Source: a virus (taxonomy: Duplodnaviria; Heunggongvirae; Uroviricota; Caudoviricetes). Taken from it: a DNA stretch of 42,541 bases. Made by a program: the position numbers and the translations under genes. Below are positions 18,520 through 28,880 of this stretch, piece after piece. The DNA lies in the IMG/VR virus record IMGVR_UViG_2529293215_000009; one strand, 5' to 3'. A model generated the notes under the pieces. The model worked only from the letters and a program-made list of their open reading frames with translations, was not told where the DNA came from and did not search any database. Numbering within the stretch: position 1 is the stretch's first letter; every line of letters starts with the position of its first letter.

Positions 18520-19834
18520 TTTAGGTTATGCCGCCACACTTGCCTCAAAAGAGGCGGTGGCATACTTCCGCGCCAAAGGGGCGCATATCAGCTGGAACTG
18601 GTTCGAAACAGACGCGGATGTTCATGCCCGTTCATTCACGGCGGCAAAAGTGGCACGCCTGGACGTACTGACCACACTACAGGCGGAAGTGCAGCGTGCT
18701 GTTGATGAGGGGATTTCACAGAAAGCATTTATTCGCACGCTGACACCCCGCCTGCAAAAGCTGGGATGGTGGGGAAAACAGATTGTGGTGGACAGTGCCG
18801 GTAACGCGGAAGAAGTGCAGCTGGGCAGTCCCCGCCGTCTGGCGCTGATTTACAACGTGAACACCCGTGTGGCTTACAATGCCGGGCGTTACACGCAGAT
18901 GATGAACAACACGGACACGCATCCGTTCTGGCAGTATGTGGCGGTGATGGACAGCCGCACCCGCCCGGCACATTCCGCCCTTAACGGGCTGGTATTCCGC
19001 TATGACGATCCGTTCTGGAATACACACTACCCGCCCAATGGCTGGAACTGTCGCTGCCGTGTCCGGCCATTGTCTCAGGCCCGTCTGGATGCGATGGGGC
19101 TGTCTGTTTCATCCGGTCAGGATCATCTCTCCACCCGCAATGTTGAGGCTGGCGTGGATAAGCAGACCGGAGAAGTCAGAGAAATGCCGGTGACCACATA
19201 TTCAGATGGCACCAGAACCATGACACCGGATGTGGGCTGGTCATATAACCCCGGCTCGGCGGCGTTCGGCACAGACCAGGCGTTGATCCGTAAACTGATC
19301 GAGGTGAAAAGCCCGGCGCTGCGGGAAATGGTAGTGCAGGAGATGAACAACAGCCCGGAGCGGCAGCTGGCGTTCCGCATCTGGGCAAAAAACATCATGA
19401 AAACCCGGCGAGGCGGTAACGATATCCGCACGCTGGGCTTTATGACCGAAAGCATTGCGCAGGCGGTGGAAAGCCGGACGGGAACGCCACCGGCCCGCCT
19501 GCTGGCGATGAGCGGTAAAAATGTGCTCCATGCGGACAGCATGAAACATCAGAATGACGGTATCGCCCTGACGCCGGAGGATTTCGGTCGATTACCGGCA
19601 ATGCTGGCAAAGCCAAAAGCGGTGCTGTGGGACAAACGCCACAACAATCTGATGTATATCGTGGAAAGTAAGGATAGCAGTGTGCAGATTGCCGTTAATG
19701 CGCCGTACAGCCTGAAGCGTCAGCCGGATAAACTGGATGTGATTGTGAATGCTTACCGGGTTATCAATATGGATAAGCTGAAATCGGATATCCGGGGTGG
19801 AATGCTTGAGGTACTGGAAGGAGATATTGATTAA
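18503..19834 (+). CDS. head morphogenesis protein (Mu F-like)
   Basis: 443 aa following portal with overlapping start. Confidence 0.75.
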   Translation: MAQGIDLGYAATLASKEAVAYFRAKGAHISWNWFETDADVHARSFTAAKVARLDVLTTLQAEVQRAVDEGISQKAFIRTLTPRLQKLGWWGKQIVVDSAGNAEEVQLGSPRRLALIYNVNTRVAYNAGRYTQMMNNTDTHPFWQYVAVMDSRTRPAHSALNGLVFRYDDPFWNTHYPPNGWNCRCRVRPLSQARLDAMGLSVSSGQDHLSTRNVEAGVDKQTGEVREMPVTTYSDGTRTMTPDVGWSYNPGSAAFGTDQALIRKLIEVKSPALREMVVQEMNNSPERQLAFRIWAKNIMKTRRGGNDIRTLGFMTESIAQAVESRTGTPPARLLAMSGKNVLHADSMKHQNDGIALTPEDFGRLPAMLAKPKAVLWDKRHNNLMYIVESKDSSVQIAVNAPYSLKRQPDKLDVIVNAYRVINMDKLKSDIRGGMLEVLEGDID

Positions 19835-19955
19835 CGGTCAGTGGCGGGGGTTGAACCCGCATACATGATCCACCCGGAGGCAGGCACCGACTTTACCAGT
19901 TAAGCGTACACTGACCGCCTGTTTATTTTATATTCATCCTTTATGCGGAGGCAAT

Positions 19956-24068: not shown

Positions 24069-24314
24069 ATGAAAACCATCTTTATCAAACCCGCGCCGGG
24101 ACGCCTGATTCGTGATCCCGACACAATGCGCCCGCTGGCACAGGAGGGGGAGGAAAAGCCCTTTACGCCGTTCTGGTGTCGGCGTCTTGATGACGGCGAT
24201 GTCATTCAGGCTGAAAAAGCCGCTGAAGAGGCTCCGGCTGTATCTGCGGATGCAACGACTGCGACAGAAAAACCGGTCGCCCAACCGGCATCCGATAAGG
24301 AGAAACCGCAATGA
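24069..24314 (+). CDS. small structural-module protein (Mu gp38 position)
   Basis: 81 aa ORF between gp37-like and sheath. Confidence 0.5.
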   Translation: MKTIFIKPAPGRLIRDPDTMRPLAQEGEEKPFTPFWCRRLDDGDVIQAEKAAEEAPAVSADATTATEKPVAQPASDKEKPQ

Positions 24315-25813
24315 TTAATTTTGACGGGATCGGTAATGACCGCCGTATACCGCTGATTGAGGTTGAGTTTAATAACTCCATGGCTGTCACCGGCACTCCG
24401 GCACAGCGTCAGTGTGTGCTGCTGTTTGGTCAGGCGAGAATGAAAGAGAATGCCGTGGACGGTGCCGGTGTTCTGGATGTTCCGGTCAGGATCACCCGTG
24501 CGTCTCAGGCAACAGAACTCTGGGGGCGCGGCTCCATGATTGCCCTGATGGTGGCGGAATTTATCGCCATCAATCCTGATGCTGAACTGTATGCCATTGC
24601 TCAGGGGAACGGCACCGGACAGGCAACGGCTGCGGCCATGAATCTGACCGGAACGGTCACCCGTGACGGGATTGTTTATGCCTGCGTGGGGGGGCGGCGT
24701 TATACACTCCCGGCACCAAAAGGTAAGAAAGGCAAAGAACTGACCGACGAGCTGGCCGCGCTGATCAATGCCGATCCTGACGCGCCCTTCACGGCCTCCT
24801 CTGGTGCAGGAAGTGGTGATAATGGCGCAGGTCTGAAAGGGTCTCTGGGGATCACCGCCCGCTTTACCGGTGAATGCTCCGTTCATGATGTGCGCCTGAA
24901 CTATCACGACGGGGAAGCAACCCCGGAAGGAATACAGGTCGCTATAGCCTATCCGAAACAAAAAGCGGCTAACCCGGATATCACCCGAAGCGTGGCGGGT
25001 ATGGGCGATCGCCAGTACAACTATGTCGTCATGCCCTATAAGGATGATGCAAACCTGAAAATCATCAGTGATGAGCTTCTGAAACGCTGGGGACCGGCCA
25101 AAATGTCTGACGGCGTGCTGTGGCTGGCACATACCGGCACGTTTGGTGAGGTGCAGGCATTCGGGGCAAAACGCAATGATTTTCTGGCGACCTGCACATC
25201 CATTCCCAAAGCCCCTGAACCGGATTACCTCTGGGCAGCGGCGGTCTGTGCCACCTGTGCACCCTCTCTGGGAGCAGATCCTGCGCGTCCGCTTCAGACG
25301 CTGGCGCTTCCGTCACGCATGGCCCCGGCTCCGGCCGATCGTCTGACGCGTGAAGAGCGTAACAGTCTGCTGTGGGGAGGGATTGCCACGGTCAGTGTGG
25401 CTGCCGGTGATGTGGTTCAGATCGAACGTCAGGTGACCATGTATCGCCAGAACGTGTACGGCGAAAGTGATCCCAGCTATCTGGATGTGGAAACCATCTA
25501 CACCCTCTCCTGGCTGCGTTATTCCCTGCGTACTTTTATCACACAACGTTTTCCGCGCCATAAACTGGCTGATGACGGGACGCCCGTTCGTGCCGGTCAG
25601 AATATCGTGACGCCGGAGATCATGAAGCTTCAGTTAATTTCGCTGGGTGAAGAGTGGGTGGAACTCGGGCTGGTCGAAAATCTGGACACCTTTAAAAAGA
25701 ATCTGCTTGTGGAGCGTAATGCGTCAGATCGAAACCGTCTTGACGTGTTATGCACGCCGGATCTGGTTAACCAGTTCCGCTTCCTGGCAGCACAGATCCG
25801 TTTCATTTTGTGA
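24311..25813 (+). CDS. tail sheath protein (Mu L-like)
   Basis: 500 aa followed by small tube gene, the usual contractile-tail arrangement. Confidence 0.8.
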   Translation: MINFDGIGNDRRIPLIEVEFNNSMAVTGTPAQRQCVLLFGQARMKENAVDGAGVLDVPVRITRASQATELWGRGSMIALMVAEFIAINPDAELYAIAQGNGTGQATAAAMNLTGTVTRDGIVYACVGGRRYTLPAPKGKKGKELTDELAALINADPDAPFTASSGAGSGDNGAGLKGSLGITARFTGECSVHDVRLNYHDGEATPEGIQVAIAYPKQKAANPDITRSVAGMGDRQYNYVVMPYKDDANLKIISDELLKRWGPAKMSDGVLWLAHTGTFGEVQAFGAKRNDFLATCTSIPKAPEPDYLWAAAVCATCAPSLGADPARPLQTLALPSRMAPAPADRLTREERNSLLWGGIATVSVAAGDVVQIERQVTMYRQNVYGESDPSYLDVETIYTLSWLRYSLRTFITQRFPRHKLADDGTPVRAGQNIVTPEIMKLQLISLGEEWVELGLVENLDTFKKNLLVERNASDRNRLDVLCTPDLVNQFRFLAAQIRFIL

Positions 25814-25821
25814 GGTAAGGC

Positions 25822-26187
25822 ATGAGCGGAAAACAGTATCAGGGTACGGCCACTATCCGTGTGAACGGTCAGGAATACGAGACGCTTGAGGGGGCTACAT
25901 TTTCTCCGTCTGGTTTTGAACGTGAAGTGGTGAAAGGCGCGAAAGTCTATGGTTACCGCCAGAAACCACGTGAAGCGACGCTGGACTGCAAATTTCCGGC
26001 AGGCGGAGAAGGTTCACCAGCCGCCGATGAAATCAACAACTGGACTGCGGTCACTATCGAGTTTGTGGCGGATACCGGCGAAGTCCACATGATGACGAAG
26101 GCCTGGAGCAGTGAACCGGCCTCGCTTGACGGTGGCGGGGAGATCTCCGTGAAGTTCGCCAGCGCCTCCAGTACCCGTGTTCAGTGA
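25822..26187 (+). CDS. tail tube protein (Mu M-like)
   Basis: 121 aa right after sheath. Confidence 0.75.
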   Translation: MSGKQYQGTATIRVNGQEYETLEGATFSPSGFEREVVKGAKVYGYRQKPREATLDCKFPAGGEGSPAADEINNWTAVTIEFVADTGEVHMMTKAWSSEPASLDGGGEISVKFASASSTRVQ

Positions 26188-26201: not shown

Positions 26202-26678
26202 ATGACCACACGTAAGAAAAAAACGGCAGTTTCCGAGGCAGCCGTGATGGAGGCAATCCGGGAAGCACTTGAGGGGGCTGATCCACGCACTGCCGGGCTG
26301 ACAGAGCAACTGGCAAAGGGATATGTGGATCTGCTTGATGGTCTGCCGTTTGGTGAGACCCGTGAATATCGTGTCACGTTCCGGGAACTGACAGCGAAAG
26401 ACAGTATTGACGCAGAAGCAGAAGCCGAGCGCGTGGTGGAGACAAACAATGGCCCGATGCTGATAGCGTCTCCGTCGTTACGCGGTGTTGCACTGCTGCG
26501 CCGTCAGATTGCCGCAGTGGGAGACATTGAAGGTCCGTTGTCACCCCGTCAGATTGGACAGTTAAGCGAGCGCGATCTCTCCCGCCTGATGGCAGCGGTC
26601 AGCCTGCTGGATACCGCGCTTGCCGGAAAGCTGGCAGCTGACCGGGGGCGATCAGGCGCAGTGTCGGGATCAGATTGA
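26202..26678 (+). CDS. tail assembly chaperone
   Basis: ORF 26184..26678, ATG at 26202; between tube and tape measure; overlapped at 3' end by a +1-frame ORF. Confidence 0.6.
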   Translation: MTTRKKKTAVSEAAVMEAIREALEGADPRTAGLTEQLAKGYVDLLDGLPFGETREYRVTFRELTAKDSIDAEAEAERVVETNNGPMLIASPSLRGVALLRRQIAAVGDIEGPLSPRQIGQLSERDLSRLMAAVSLLDTALAGKLAADRGRSGAVSGSD

Positions 26679-26802
26679 AGAAGCGGCAATTATCCTGGGG
26701 ATGGTGACAAAAAGCGGTCCGGAATGGGCGCTTAACCTCCCCCTGTCGCAACTTTACCGGCACTGCCGACAGACAGAAAAAATCATCAGAACGAAGCAGT
26801 AA
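26620..26802 (+). CDS. candidate frameshift extension of tail assembly chaperone
   Basis: +1-frame ORF overlapping chaperone 3' end and ending 2 nt before tape measure start; GGGGG run at 26644..26648 in overlap. Confidence 0.4.
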   Translation: MPESWQLTGGDQAQCRDQIEEAAIILGMVTKSGPEWALNLPLSQLYRHCRQTEKIIRTKQ

Positions 26803-26804
26803 GT

Positions 26805-28880
26805 ATGGCCCGAAATCTCAGAGCATCTCTGATAGTTGATTTGCTCGGCAATATCTCAGCCAAATCCCGCCAGTGGTCACAGGAGCTGGGGGCATTCTCA
26901 CGCTCCGGCCAGGCGGGGCTGGGTGGCCTGGGAAATGCTGCCCGCCGTGCCGGGCAGGAAACAGATGTACTCGGAAGCAGAATGCAGCGCACGCTGGCCG
27001 GGGTGCGGGGCAGTATCCGCCATGTCACTTCTGATTTTGACCGTCTTCAGGGCAGTATTACCGGCACCATCGGGCGGATCAGCAATCTTTACGGAATGCT
27101 GGCCGGTGGTGCTGCTGTATATGGCTTTAACCGGGGATTTATTCGCCCGGCAGCGGAGATGGAAACCTATATGATTCGCCTGAACTCCCTTTACAAAGGG
27201 GATCGGGCGAAAACTGATGATGTCCGCAGGTGGGCAATACAGAATGCGAAGGAAACCACCTGGGGGCTGGCTGGCGTCATGCAGGAATATACGTCCAGTC
27301 TGGGCTTTGGTATGAGTGACAGGGAGGCCCGAAATTTTGTCACCATGCTTCAGGATCAGGGTGCCGTGGGCGGCTGGTCACTGTCCGATGCACAGGGGGC
27401 ATCCCTGCAACTGAAACAGATGTATGCAAGAGGCAGTATTCAGGCGGCGGATGCAAATATTCTTGCCACCTACGGCATTAATGCCTACCGCGTGCTGGCT
27501 GATCGTCTGGGTGTGGACCAGAAAGTGGTCAGAAAACTTGGTGAAAAAGGGCTGCTTGGGCCGGACAGTATTCGCCTGTTATTTCAGACGCTGGCGGAAC
27601 AGGCCAGGGGAGCACAAAAGGACGCAATGAATTCCTGGAGTGGCCTGACGGCCATGATGGGTGACGTCTGGGACCAGTTTGCCCGGGATGTGATGGACAG
27701 TGGGCCATTTGAAAAACTGAAGGGTAATCTCAGGGGATTTCTTTCATGGGTTGACAGTGCCAAATCTGATGGCAGTTACCATTCCCTGGCGGAAAGCACG
27801 GCATCAGCCATGAACCAGGGCTTTGAGTATGCCCGTGATGCAGTGACAGGGTTTTATCAGGCGATCAGAAAGGTACGCGACACGCTTCAGGCTCTGCGGG
27901 ATGCGGGCTATGGTGATGCGCTGGATCGCATTGGTCAGGGGGCACAGACTGCCGCGAAATACCTGCTGTACATGTATCTCGCCACCCGTGCCCTGAAAAT
28001 GGCGCGGGCTGTCGGAACGGGGATTATACGTCCGGGTGCTGCATTGCTGGGATACGGATTATCAGCGGCGGCCTTCCTGACTTCACCTTTCCGGCGCTCT
28101 CCTCCGGCCGGAACACCACCAGGCACATCTCAGGGACGAGGGCAACGTTTTATAAACTTTCTTACCGGGGTAAATCCGGCAGCCGTTCAGCCAGTACTTG
28201 TAACAAACTGGCCCACAGGAGGACTGTCCGGCACCGGCGCGACCGATACATCCTCAGGCGGACGTCAGGGGCGGGGCCGCAGGAAACGCGGACCGGGGCG
28301 CGGAAGACCGGTCACGCCTCCCCTGCCACCGTCCCCAGTGCCACCGTCTCCCTCTTCTGGTGGGGCAGGGTTCTGGGGGCGCATGATGGGGCGCGCCGGT
28401 GGGTTACTTTCGTCTGTCGGTAGCCGCATGGGGCTGGGGCGTTTCTCCGGCTTTTTCCGCAGTGCCGGTGGACTGGCCGGCCGGCTGGGTGGAGGTGCCC
28501 TGTGGGCTGGCGCGATGGCAGCCCCGGTTCTGCTGGATGGCAGCGCCAGTGCCACAGACAAGGGAGAAGCGGTCGGCTCTCTTGCAGGCAGTATTGCCGG
28601 TGGTGCGCTGGGGGCGGCAGCCGGACCTGTGGGGATTGCCATTGGTTCTACGGTGGGCAGCTATCTCGGTAACTATCTGGGGGGATGGCTGACTGAAGCC
28701 TGGCAGAAATTACGGGGCAGTGATGATGAAAGCAGTGGACAGGCGGTACAAAAAGCCTCTGCCCGTGTGGAGCTGGTTGCCCCGGAAGGGTGGCAGGCTC
28801 GCAGTATTGATATTGATGACACGTCCGGTCACGGACTGGATGTGAATGTCTGGAACGGAGGGAATTATGGCCTCTGGTGA
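26805..28880 (+). CDS. tail tape measure protein
   Basis: 691 aa; Gly-rich and proline-rich low-complexity C-terminal half; between chaperone and baseplate genes. Confidence 0.8.
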   Translation: MARNLRASLIVDLLGNISAKSRQWSQELGAFSRSGQAGLGGLGNAARRAGQETDVLGSRMQRTLAGVRGSIRHVTSDFDRLQGSITGTIGRISNLYGMLAGGAAVYGFNRGFIRPAAEMETYMIRLNSLYKGDRAKTDDVRRWAIQNAKETTWGLAGVMQEYTSSLGFGMSDREARNFVTMLQDQGAVGGWSLSDAQGASLQLKQMYARGSIQAADANILATYGINAYRVLADRLGVDQKVVRKLGEKGLLGPDSIRLLFQTLAEQARGAQKDAMNSWSGLTAMMGDVWDQFARDVMDSGPFEKLKGNLRGFLSWVDSAKSDGSYHSLAESTASAMNQGFEYARDAVTGFYQAIRKVRDTLQALRDAGYGDALDRIGQGAQTAAKYLLYMYLATRALKMARAVGTGIIRPGAALLGYGLSAAAFLTSPFRRSPPAGTPPGTSQGRGQRFINFLTGVNPAAVQPVLVTNWPTGGLSGTGATDTSSGGRQGRGRRKRGPGRGRPVTPPLPPSPVPPSPSSGGAGFWGRMMGRAGGLLSSVGSRMGLGRFSGFFRSAGGLAGRLGGGALWAGAMAAPVLLDGSASATDKGEAVGSLAGSIAGGALGAAAGPVGIAIGSTVGSYLGNYLGGWLTEAWQKLRGSDDESSGQAVQKASARVELVAPEGWQARSIDIDDTSGHGLDVNVWNGGNYGLW

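What the first reader, a model, noticed from the sequence alone, without database searches (positions are those of the whole stretch)
26202..26802. Candidate programmed frameshift producing an extended tail assembly chaperone
A 60-codon ORF in the +1 frame overlaps the last 19 codons of the chaperone and stops 2 nt before the tape measure start, the G/GT-like arrangement conserved in tailed phages. The overlap contains a GGGGG run, but the frame relationship is +1 (or -2), not the common -1.
Basis: partly seen in the sequence, partly recalled or inferred. Interest (0 to 1): 0.5.

Follow-up and report, generated by a model that had tools for sequence, protein, structure and literature searches.

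The report
Mu-type -2 frameshift in tail chaperone

Summary
A gp41-family tail assembly chaperone gene (26202-26678) is overlapped by a +1-frame ORF (open 26590-26802). That ORF ends 2 nt before the tape measure ATG (26805), and a G5 run (26644-26648) lies in the overlap.

Frame 0 reads CGG GGG CGA. Phage Mu gene 41 has the same nine bases in the same frame; GenBank marks that site as a "verified -2 translational frameshift" (Xu et al. 2004), and UniProt lists the product as FS-gp41.

The 52-aa extension is 53% identical to Mu's (E=1e-21). It evolves under purifying selection only in that frame (dN/dS about 0.1, against 0.7-11 in the other two frames).

GGG CGA is invariant in 51 distinct relatives from Escherichia, Klebsiella, Pasteurella, Shewanella, Vibrio and Alteromonadaceae phages. 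In 44 of them the preceding codon also ends in GG. No conserved RNA structure accompanies the site.

Best reading: a -2 ribosomal slip gives a 200-aa G-T-like fusion alongside the 158-aa chaperone. RefSeq does not annotate the fusion, and PHROGs files the extension as "unknown function".

Verdict: a new member of a known kind, of low interest. Two points stay open: the exact slipping tRNA, and possible coupling of the Shine-Dalgarno-less tape measure start to the frameshift.

The parts
26202..26678 (+). Tail assembly chaperone gene, frame 0 (158 aa); homologue of Mu gp41 and equivalent of lambda gpG
   Evidence: ORF list. Pfam Gp41_Mu PF23746 E=7e-32 and Phage_TAC_7 PF10109 E=1.1e-5. PHROG 508 'tail assembly chaperone' E=4.6e-46. 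RefSeq calls it 'phage tail assembly protein' WP_000213225.1. 49% identical to Mu gp41.
26643..26651 (+). Shift site CGG GGG CGA (G5 run 26644-26648, followed by the rare Arg codon CGA)
   Evidence: Sequence. The same 9-mer in the same frame occurs in Mu, D108, SfMu and distant Mu-like phages. GGG CGA is invariant in 51 distinct relatives, and 44 of them have NGG GGG CGA. P(NGG GGG CGA | Arg-Gly-Arg) is 0.0026 from the window's codon usage, and CGA is 5% of Arg codons.
26647..26802 (+). Extension in the +1 frame (T-like domain): GGC after a -2 slip, through TAA 26800-26802. It adds 51 residues and gives a 200-aa fusion.
   Evidence: Translation. 53% identity to the Mu FS-gp41 C-terminus, E=1e-21. 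PHROG 12783, E=4e-38. dN/dS about 0.1 in this frame against 0.7-11 in the other two. Length of 45-52 aa is conserved in all relatives.
26805..28880 (+). Tape measure protein gene (691 aa); likely client of the chaperone part. Its start has almost no Shine-Dalgarno pairing and sits 2 nt after the extension's stop.
   Evidence: Pfam TMP_3 PF20155 E=1.9e-18. Anti-SD duplex -1.4 kcal/mol, against -4.3 to -9.3 for the sheath, tube and chaperone starts. Stop-to-start distances of -23 to +14 nt in relatives.
25822..26187 (+). Tail tube protein gene (121 aa); immediate upstream neighbour and, by analogy with lambda gpV, the likely partner of the extension
   Evidence: Pfam Tail_tube PF10618 E=3.3e-31. 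Gene order sheath-tube-chaperone-TMP, as in Mu.
24311..25813 (+). Tail sheath gene (500 aa); context showing a contractile Mu-type tail module
   Evidence: Pfam Phage_sheath_1, Phage_sheath_1C and Phage_sheath_domII.

Best explanation
The region is the tail assembly chaperone gene pair of a Mu-like prophage, expressed as in phage Mu. Most ribosomes read 26202-26678 and make the 158-aa chaperone. A minority slip two nucleotides backwards at C GGG GGC GA (26643-26651) and continue in the +1 frame to TAA 26800-26802, which gives a 200-aa fusion.

The most likely slip has peptidyl-tRNA(Gly) on GGG (26646-26648), with the slow, rare CGA codon waiting in the A site. That tRNA re-pairs perfectly with GGG at 26644-26646. 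The next codon read is then GGC (26647-26649), and the junction is ...AADRG-GDQAQCR...

By analogy with lambda gpG/gpGT, the shared N-terminal part binds the tape measure protein. The extension recruits the tube protein so that the tube polymerises around the tape measure. Neither form ends up in the virion.

Shown here: homology, identity of the site, conservation, and purifying selection on the extension frame. Taken from the literature: that the Mu site shifts by -2. Inferred: that this copy shifts, which tRNA slips, how efficiently, and what the two domains do. The confidence given is for a programmed shift into the +1 frame at this site producing a chaperone-extension fusion; that the shift is -2 by tRNA(Gly) specifically is less certain (about 0.6).
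For: - The chaperone belongs to the Mu gp41 family and lies between the tube and tape measure genes in a complete Mu-like prophage.
- Frame-0 CGG GGG CGA is identical to Mu gene 41. GenBank AF083977 annotates Mu_56 as a 'verified -2 translational frameshift in PMID 15469818'.
- My reconstruction of the Mu -2 product is exactly UniProt P0DJY4, 'Probable tail assembly protein FS-gp41'.
- The extension is 53% identical to Mu's, E=1e-21.
- Relatives were ascertained through a peptide motif elsewhere in the protein. GGG CGA is invariant in 51 distinct sequences, and 44 have NGG GGG CGA.
- Every Arg codon before GGG is CGG or AGG (together 22% of Arg codons in the window), across about a dozen lineages below 50% identity. 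CGA makes up 5% of Arg codons.
- dN/dS is about 0.1 in the extension frame only.
- Extension length and its end next to the tape measure start are conserved.
- No start codon for the extension is conserved: the window has only TTG 26620 and ATG 26701, both with poor or misplaced SD pairing.
- The element is present in 228 complete E. coli genomes, with up to 4 copies per genome, which suggests a live transposable phage.
Against: - No protein data exist for this prophage, and the Xu et al. 2004 paper could not be read here.
- The direction (-2 rather than +1) is carried over from Mu, not tested.
- A tRNA(Gly) on GGG could re-pair equally well at -1, and the site alone does not explain why -2 is used.
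- Seven relatives have only four Gs (AAG/CAG/TCG GGG CGA). There a -2 re-pairing of tRNA(Gly) would mismatch at the first codon position.
- GenBank UIW09302.1 places the Mu junction after CGA (..ERGR|EW..), whereas UniProt places it after GGG (..ERG|GEW..). The slipping tRNA is therefore not settled even for Mu in the databases.
- No stimulatory RNA structure was found, so nothing but the site itself explains the efficiency.
Confidence: 0.9

Rival explanations
1. The same site and the same extension are used, but the shift is +1. Peptidyl-tRNA(Gly) on GGG moves forward onto GGC while the hungry CGA codon is empty. The product is a 199-aa fusion (...AADRG-DQAQCR...) with one Gly fewer.
For: +1 and -2 lead to the same frame. 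A rare A-site codon is the classic trigger of +1 slips (own knowledge; prfB and Ty1 are discussed in PMC5009743). The G run directly 5' resembles the AGGGGG Shine-Dalgarno stimulator of prfB +1 frameshifting (own knowledge). The 4-G variants (AAG/CAG/TCG GGG CGA) keep GGG C but lose perfect -2 re-pairing.
Against: Mu's identical site is recorded as a verified -2 shift (PMC5009743). A +1 slip gives no reason for the two Gs before GGG, yet 44 of 51 relatives have them, using otherwise disfavoured CGG/AGG codons. GGG to GGC re-pairing has a C:C clash at the wobble position.
Confidence: 0.1
2. The shift is -2 but is made by tRNA(Arg, anticodon ICG) after CGA has been decoded. The tRNA slips from CGA (26649-26651) back onto GGC (26647-26649), swapping a poor I:A wobble for a good I:C. 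The junction is ...AADRGR-DQAQCR..., also 200 aa.
For: GenBank's curated Mu product UIW09302.1 has exactly this kind of junction (..QERGR|EWLRC..). The bases this slip needs, GGCGA, are the invariant core in all 51 relatives, including the 4-G variants. It would explain why CGA specifically is invariant and why the shift is -2 rather than -1 (inference).
Against: Re-pairing would be only 2 of 3 positions, with a G:G clash at the first. It does not explain selection for G at the one or two positions before GGG. UniProt P0DJY4 uses the other junction.
Confidence: 0.15
3. The downstream ORF is a separate small gene translated from its own start codon. It is annotated this way as gp41.5 in phage D108 and as a 48-aa hypothetical protein in E. 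coli M3. No frameshift is involved.
For: Such stand-alone annotations exist, and they have been clustered as PHROG 12783 'unknown function'. The window has TTG 26620 and ATG 26701 in this frame.
Against: No start codon is conserved. The ATG used in E. coli M3 is GCG in the window, and Met 26701 is Val or Ile in Mu and others. SD pairing is weak for TTG 26620 (-3.1 kcal/mol) and abuts the start codon for ATG 26701. Conservation of the peptide begins exactly at the G run (G-D/E...), not at any start. Nucleotide-level invariance of the shift site would be left unexplained. The Mu fusion is reported as verified.
Confidence: 0.03
4. The frame change is made at the RNA level: RNA polymerase slips on the G5 run and deletes or adds a G in a fraction of transcripts.
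For: A homopolymer lies at the junction. Some assemblies carry a 4-G version that fuses the frames directly (L052; Logan proteins P0002 and P0008), so the run is at least indel-prone at the DNA or sequencing level.
Against: Known bacterial transcriptional slippage needs runs of about 7-9 A or T; five Gs is short (own knowledge; slippage sites are reviewed in PMC5009743). It would not explain the invariant CGA. Mu is recorded as a translational frameshift.
Confidence: 0.02

Closest known systems
Phage Mu gp41 / FS-gp41 (Mu_41/Mu_56; UniProt P0DJY4): -2 programmed frameshift in the tail assembly chaperone gene (Xu, Hendrix & Duda 2004, PMID 15469818)
   Same: Same protein family (PF23746). Same gene order: sheath, tube, chaperone, tape measure. 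Identical shift site CGG GGG CGA in the same frame. Homologous extension (53% identity). Same +1/-2 frame relation, with the extension ending next to the tape measure start.
   Different: Only 49% identity in the chaperone part. The window protein has about 30 extra N-terminal residues. The frame-0 tail after the site is 8 aa rather than 6. The tape measure start is 2 nt from the extension's stop with no SD, against 14 nt with an AGGA SD in Mu. The fusion has not been demonstrated and is not annotated for this prophage.
Lambda gpG/gpGT (-1 frameshift at G GGA AAG)
   Same: Two nested products from the gene just upstream of the tape measure gene. A short form is made in excess and a rare long form carries an extra C-terminal domain. 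No strong stimulatory structure is needed. The functional model (the G part binds the tape measure, the T part binds the tube subunit) is taken from here (PMC5009743).
   Different: Direction is -1 on a heptanucleotide with tandem tRNA slippage. No detectable sequence similarity. Non-contractile tail.
P2 gpE/gpE+E' (-1 frameshift; myovirus tail chaperone)
   Same: Contractile-tail phage. The chaperone family is distantly related: Pfam Phage_TAC_7, 'E, or 41 or 14', hits the window protein at E=1.1e-5. Same position upstream of the tape measure gene.
   Different: P2 shifts -1 (PMC5009743; PMC2628397). The site and the extension are unrelated in sequence.
Arterivirus nsp2TF (-2 frameshift at G GUU UUU) and other +1-frame tail chaperone cases such as haloarchaeal virus HSTV-2
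   Same: These reach the +1 frame by an unusual route. -2 frameshifting is among the rarest recoding events (PMC5009743).
   Different: Eukaryotic ribosomes with a protein trans-activator for nsp2TF, and different shift sites. The resemblance is in mechanism only.

Membership tests
Mu-type gp41/FS-gp41 -2 frameshifting tail assembly chaperone | The upstream ORF is a homologue of Mu gp41 | tested here: met
   Pfam Gp41_Mu PF23746 E=7e-32, covering the whole profile. tblastn to Mu: 49% identity, E=2e-26.
Mu-type gp41/FS-gp41 -2 frameshifting tail assembly chaperone | Shift site C GGG GGC GA near the 3' end of frame 0, in the same register as in Mu | tested here: met
   Window GAC CGG GGG CGA TCA against Mu GAA CGG GGG CGA GTG. 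The site lies 11 and 9 codons before the stop respectively.
Mu-type gp41/FS-gp41 -2 frameshifting tail assembly chaperone | The +1-frame extension is homologous to the C-terminal part of Mu FS-gp41 | tested here: met
   BLASTP: 25/47 identical, E=1e-21. The reconstructed Mu fusion equals UniProt P0DJY4.
Mu-type gp41/FS-gp41 -2 frameshifting tail assembly chaperone | The extension frame is maintained by purifying selection in relatives | tested here: met
   dN/dS is 0.09-0.32 in the extension frame against 0.7-11 in the other two frames, for ten pairwise comparisons.
Mu-type gp41/FS-gp41 -2 frameshifting tail assembly chaperone | A fusion protein is actually made, and by a -2 (not +1) ribosomal shift | not testable with these tools
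   Reported for Mu only (GenBank note; PMC5009743). The primary paper is not held.
G/GT-type tail assembly chaperone pair of long-tailed phages (Xu et al. 2004) | Two overlapping ORFs between the major tail/tube gene and the tape measure gene, the second lacking its own conserved start | tested here: met
   Gene order. No conserved start codon in the extension frame.
G/GT-type tail assembly chaperone pair of long-tailed phages (Xu et al. 2004) | Canonical -1 slippery heptanucleotide X XXY YYZ | tested here: not met
   The conserved extension is in the +1/-2 frame. The -1 frame closes after 20 codons and its length is not conserved. This is the known Mu exception and does not count against membership of the functional class.
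G/GT-type tail assembly chaperone pair of long-tailed phages (Xu et al. 2004) | Both products are required for tail assembly, in a set ratio, and both are absent from virions | not testable with these tools
   Shown for lambda (cited in PMC5009743). The Mu cryo-EM study did not resolve gp41 in the virion (PMC11915804).
Frameshift sites with an RNA stimulator (downstream hairpin or pseudoknot) | A stable or covarying structure 3' of the site | tested here: not met
   Folding z-scores of +0.08 (window) and -0.50 (Mu). RNAalifold finds no consensus pair in 30 relatives.

The most novel reading that the evidence does not exclude
In this prophage clade the tape measure gene may have no independent ribosome entry. 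Its ATG (26805) has essentially no Shine-Dalgarno pairing (-1.4 kcal/mol) and lies 2 nt after the stop of the frameshift extension (TAAGTATG). The tape measure protein could then be made mainly by ribosomes that first frameshifted and then re-initiated. That would tie tape measure output to the output of the long chaperone form, so the -2 shift would act as the single dial setting both. A secondary open point: relatives with only four Gs may reach the same frame by a different slip (+1, or a tRNA(Arg) -2 slip), meaning the slip mechanism may have changed within one orthologous site.
Probability: 0.12. Interest if true: 0.45.

Novelty: new member of a known kind. Interest (0 to 1): 0.17.

Why it matters
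Biologically it adds little: it is the orthologue of a recoding event shown in Mu twenty years ago. Its practical value is in annotation. RefSeq leaves 126 nt "intergenic" at this spot in 228 complete E. coli genomes, many of them O157:H7 and other Shiga-toxin strains. The fusion protein is absent from a 15-billion-sequence collection, and PHROGs carries the extension as a family of unknown function.

The comparative set assembled here is also useful in its own right. It shows that GGG CGA is invariant across gamma-proteobacterial Mu-like phages, that it carries no RNA structure, and that natural 4-G variants exist. It also exposes a disagreement between UniProt and GenBank over the junction residue. 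Together these give a ready-made series for working out how bacterial ribosomes perform a -2 shift, one of the rarest recoding events.

Tried and rejected
- **Downstream RNA stimulator.** Single-sequence folds of the window and Mu are no more stable than shuffles. A 30-sequence alignment gives no consensus pair. Rejected.
- **Phage-encoded tRNA that might modulate decoding of GGG or CGA.** ARAGORN and Rfam find nothing in the window. Rejected.
- **Independent start for the extension.** Candidate starts are not conserved and have poor SD geometry. Rejected as the main route.
- **Chance ORF.** It cannot be rejected from this sequence alone (P about 0.05-0.17). It is rejected by conservation and dN/dS.
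- **Conserved -1-frame product from the same G run.** The length of the -1 frame is not conserved. Not pursued.
- **Upstream SD-like GGAG/GAGG, 10-14 nt before the G run.** Seen in several distant relatives but absent from the window and Mu, and confounded with a conserved Glu codon. Left as a note.
- **Reading Xu et al. 2004.** The paper is not held. A literature search for the site's sequence gave only irrelevant hits.
- **Structure prediction of the fusion.** There is no PDB relative by sequence.

Full report
**1. What is in the sequence**

The region belongs to a contractile-tail module, read:
- sheath, 24311-25813
- tube, 25822-26187
- a 158-aa ORF, 26202-26678
- a 126-nt stretch with no frame-0 gene
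- a 691-aa tape measure protein gene starting at 26805

Pfam assigns these to Phage_sheath_1, Tail_tube, Gp41_Mu (PF23746, E=7e-32; also Phage_TAC_7, E=1.1e-5) and TMP_3.

The +1 frame is open from 26590 to TAA 26800-26802. It is listed as a 60-codon TTG ORF from 26620 and ends 2 nt before the tape measure ATG. Frame 0 reads GAC CGG GGG CGA TCA, with the G5 run at 26644-26648.

Taken alone, the ORF is not statistically striking. At the window's +1-frame stop density, 41 open codons beyond a stop have P of about 0.17 and 70 open codons about 0.05.

**2. Where the window comes from**

The 801 bases around the site are at least 99% identical in 195 complete E. coli genomes. Another 33 genomes match at 84-99%. 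Many are O157:H7 and other Shiga-toxin-producing strains, and some genomes carry up to four copies.

In one O157:H7 genome the surrounding 40 kb is a complete Mu-like prophage. It has Gam, Mor, lysis genes, gp27, a DUF935 portal, a gpT head subunit, sheath, tube, chaperone, tape measure, baseplate genes gp44-48, a Gin-type recombinase and Com.

RefSeq annotates only the 158-aa "phage tail assembly protein" and leaves the 126 nt empty. In a few relatives the extension is annotated as a free-standing small protein: D108 gp41.5 and a 48-aa hypothetical protein in E. coli M3.

**3. The link to phage Mu**

In Mu (AF083977) gene 41 reads CAA GAA CGG GGG CGA GTG, the same nine bases in the same frame.

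I rebuilt the Mu product by reading through GGG and stepping back two bases. That 188-aa sequence is exactly UniProt P0DJY4, "Probable tail assembly protein FS-gp41".

Atkins et al. [quoted passage not shown] 2004 and Baranov et al. 2006. They also say that tailed phages use -1, -2 or +1 at this gene pair. PMC2628397 says the same of Mu. I could not read the primary paper.

**4. Comparative evidence**

I collected nine annotated phage loci and 80 IMG/VR loci. The IMG/VR loci were found through a peptide motif in the middle of the chaperone, so their selection was independent of the shift site.

- **Extension.** In every intact locus the +1 frame, and only that frame, is open across the gap. 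It encodes 45-52 residues that begin G-(D/E) and share a pattern of the form ...LPL.R/QL..R....
- **End of the extension.** It ends between 23 nt inside and 14 nt before the tape measure start.
- **Shift site.** Among 51 distinct extension DNAs, GGG CGA is invariant. Forty have CGG GGG CGA, four have AGG GGG CGA, and seven have only four Gs (AAG, CAG or TCG GGG CGA).
- **Hosts.** The named phage relatives come from Escherichia, Shigella, Yersinia, Klebsiella, Pasteurella, Shewanella, Vibrio and Alteromonadaceae.
- **Codon choice.** From the window's own codon usage, the chance that an Arg-Gly-Arg tripeptide is spelled NGG GGG CGA is 0.0026. CGA is 5% of Arg codons, and CGG plus AGG make up 22%.
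- **Why "RGR" is conserved.** The invariant "RGR" in the protein alignment is best read as a shadow of a nucleotide signal. Where the run has only four Gs, the first residue is K, Q or S rather than R.
- **Limit of the Pfam profile.** The Gp41_Mu profile ends at residue 150, exactly at this motif.
- **Selection.** The window's extension is 53% identical to Mu's (E=1e-21). Nei-Gojobori estimates against ten relatives give dN/dS of 0.09-0.32 in the extension frame and 0.7-11 in the other two.

**5. Mechanism**

No stimulatory RNA structure is evident. Folding energies of the 100 nt from the site are ordinary (z = +0.08 for the window, -0.50 for Mu). A 30-sequence alignment yields no consensus pair. 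This fits the review's remark that frameshifting in some tailed phages appears to work without stimulators.

*Preferred model (inference).* Peptidyl-tRNA(Gly) sits on GGG (26646-26648) while the rare, I:A-wobble-decoded CGA codon keeps the A site empty. The tRNA re-pairs perfectly two bases back on GGG (26644-26646), and GGC (26647-26649) is read next. The product has 200 aa with the junction ...AADRG-GDQAQCR.... This explains the selected Gs before GGG.

*A variant.* The slip could instead be made by tRNA(Arg-ICG), moving from CGA back onto GGC. The junction would then be ...DRGR-DQAQCR.... GenBank's Mu protein UIW09302.1 encodes this kind of junction (..ERGR|EW..), whereas UniProt has ..ERG|GEW... 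The variant would explain why GGCGA is the truly invariant core and why the shift is -2 rather than -1.

*A rival.* A +1 slip (199 aa, ...DRG-DQAQCR...) reaches the same frame. It is disfavoured by the Mu record and by the conserved upstream Gs.

The three junctions give different tryptic peptides, so one mass spectrometry experiment would settle the matter.

*Alternatives judged unlikely.* Independent initiation is unlikely because no start codon is conserved and SD geometry is poor. Transcriptional slippage on five Gs is unlikely on general knowledge, and it would not explain the invariant CGA.

**6. Function**

This is inferred by analogy, not tested here. In lambda, gpG and the G part of gpGT coat the tape measure protein. 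The T domain binds the tube subunit and starts its polymerisation. The ratio of the two forms matters, and neither is in the virion (PMC5009743). The Mu cryo-EM study did not resolve gp41 in particles and calls it a probable chaperone (PMC11915804). There is no solved structure of a sequence relative.

**7. Side observations**

- The tape measure start of the window has almost no anti-SD complementarity (-1.4 kcal/mol). The sheath, tube and chaperone starts score -9.3, -6.9 and -4.3.
- The whole clade at 80-86% identity shares this lack of an SD, with the extension's stop 2-13 nt upstream. Mu and most other relatives have a moderate SD.
- This permits, but does not show, termination-reinitiation coupling of tape measure synthesis to the frameshifted ribosomes. 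An A-rich, unstructured leader is an ordinary alternative explanation.
- PHROG 12783 ("unknown function") is this extension (E=4e-38).
- Some assemblies carry one G fewer and thus a direct fusion (L052, which also has a second indel; Logan proteins P0002 and P0008). These are probably sequencing errors or decayed prophages.

**8. Verdict**

The region is an unannotated orthologue of the known Mu gp41/FS-gp41 -2 programmed frameshift. It is a new member of a known kind and of low intrinsic interest. It has modest value for annotation and as comparative material for studying how a bacterial -2 shift works.

Noticed in passing
L001 (phage Mu AF083977) 1858-1870; proteins P0001 and P0006: UniProt P0DJY4 and GenBank UIW09302.1 both give a 188-aa Mu -2 frameshift product but differ at the junction residue (..QERG|GEWL.. 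against ..QERGR|EWL..). They place the slip at different codons, GGG against CGA.
   Followed up: partly
L032-L037 (AAG GGG CGA), L039/L040 (CAG GGG CGA), L058/L062 (TCG GGG CGA); site near 1940-1950 in each locus: Three lineages of relatives have only four Gs at the shift site, so tRNA(Gly) cannot re-pair perfectly at -2. The extension is still intact and conserved. They may use a different slip (+1, or tRNA(Arg) -2).
   Followed up: partly
window 26785-26807; also L003, L005, L021-L038: The tape measure ATG has essentially no Shine-Dalgarno pairing (-1.4 kcal/mol or weaker) throughout this prophage clade, and it lies 2-13 nt after the stop of the frameshift extension. Mu and most other relatives have a moderate SD. 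This suggests possible translational coupling.
   Followed up: partly
window 26647-26802; PHROG 12783: The extension peptide matches PHROG 12783 (54-position profile, category 'unknown function') at E=4e-38. That PHROG is evidently built from mis-annotated free-standing copies of the frameshift extension, such as D108 gp41.5.
   Followed up: yes
L052 about 1846-1870; proteins P0002 and P0008 (Logan assemblies): Some assemblies have one G fewer (CGG GGC GAG), which fuses the chaperone and extension in one frame (187-aa products, ..ERGEW..). L052 also has a second indel further on. These are either homopolymer sequencing errors or decaying prophages.
   Followed up: partly
window about 19807-19887, minus strand (= L093 13708-13788): RefSeq/PGAP annotates a 'tRNA-OTHER' here, between the head morphogenesis and virion morphogenesis genes. 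ARAGORN and Rfam (gathering thresholds) find no tRNA or other RNA family anywhere in the window. It is probably a false call.
   Followed up: partly
Alignment A2 columns 10-20 (10-14 nt upstream of the G run) in Vibrio, Shewanella, B23, L076, L083 and L091: Several distant relatives have a GGAG/GAGG/AGGAG Shine-Dalgarno-like element 10-14 nt 5' of the G run. That is the spacing known to stimulate backward slips in dnaX. The window and Mu lack it, and it coincides with a conserved Glu codon, so it may be protein-level conservation.
   Followed up: no
L093 34900-35628 (E. coli O157:H7 ECP19-2498); LC727881 and LC727895: Copies of this prophage or close relatives sit at different places: next to a shortened flgG in one O157:H7 genome, inside Stx-converting prophages in others, and at up to four copies per genome. 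This is consistent with active Mu-type transposition.
   Followed up: no
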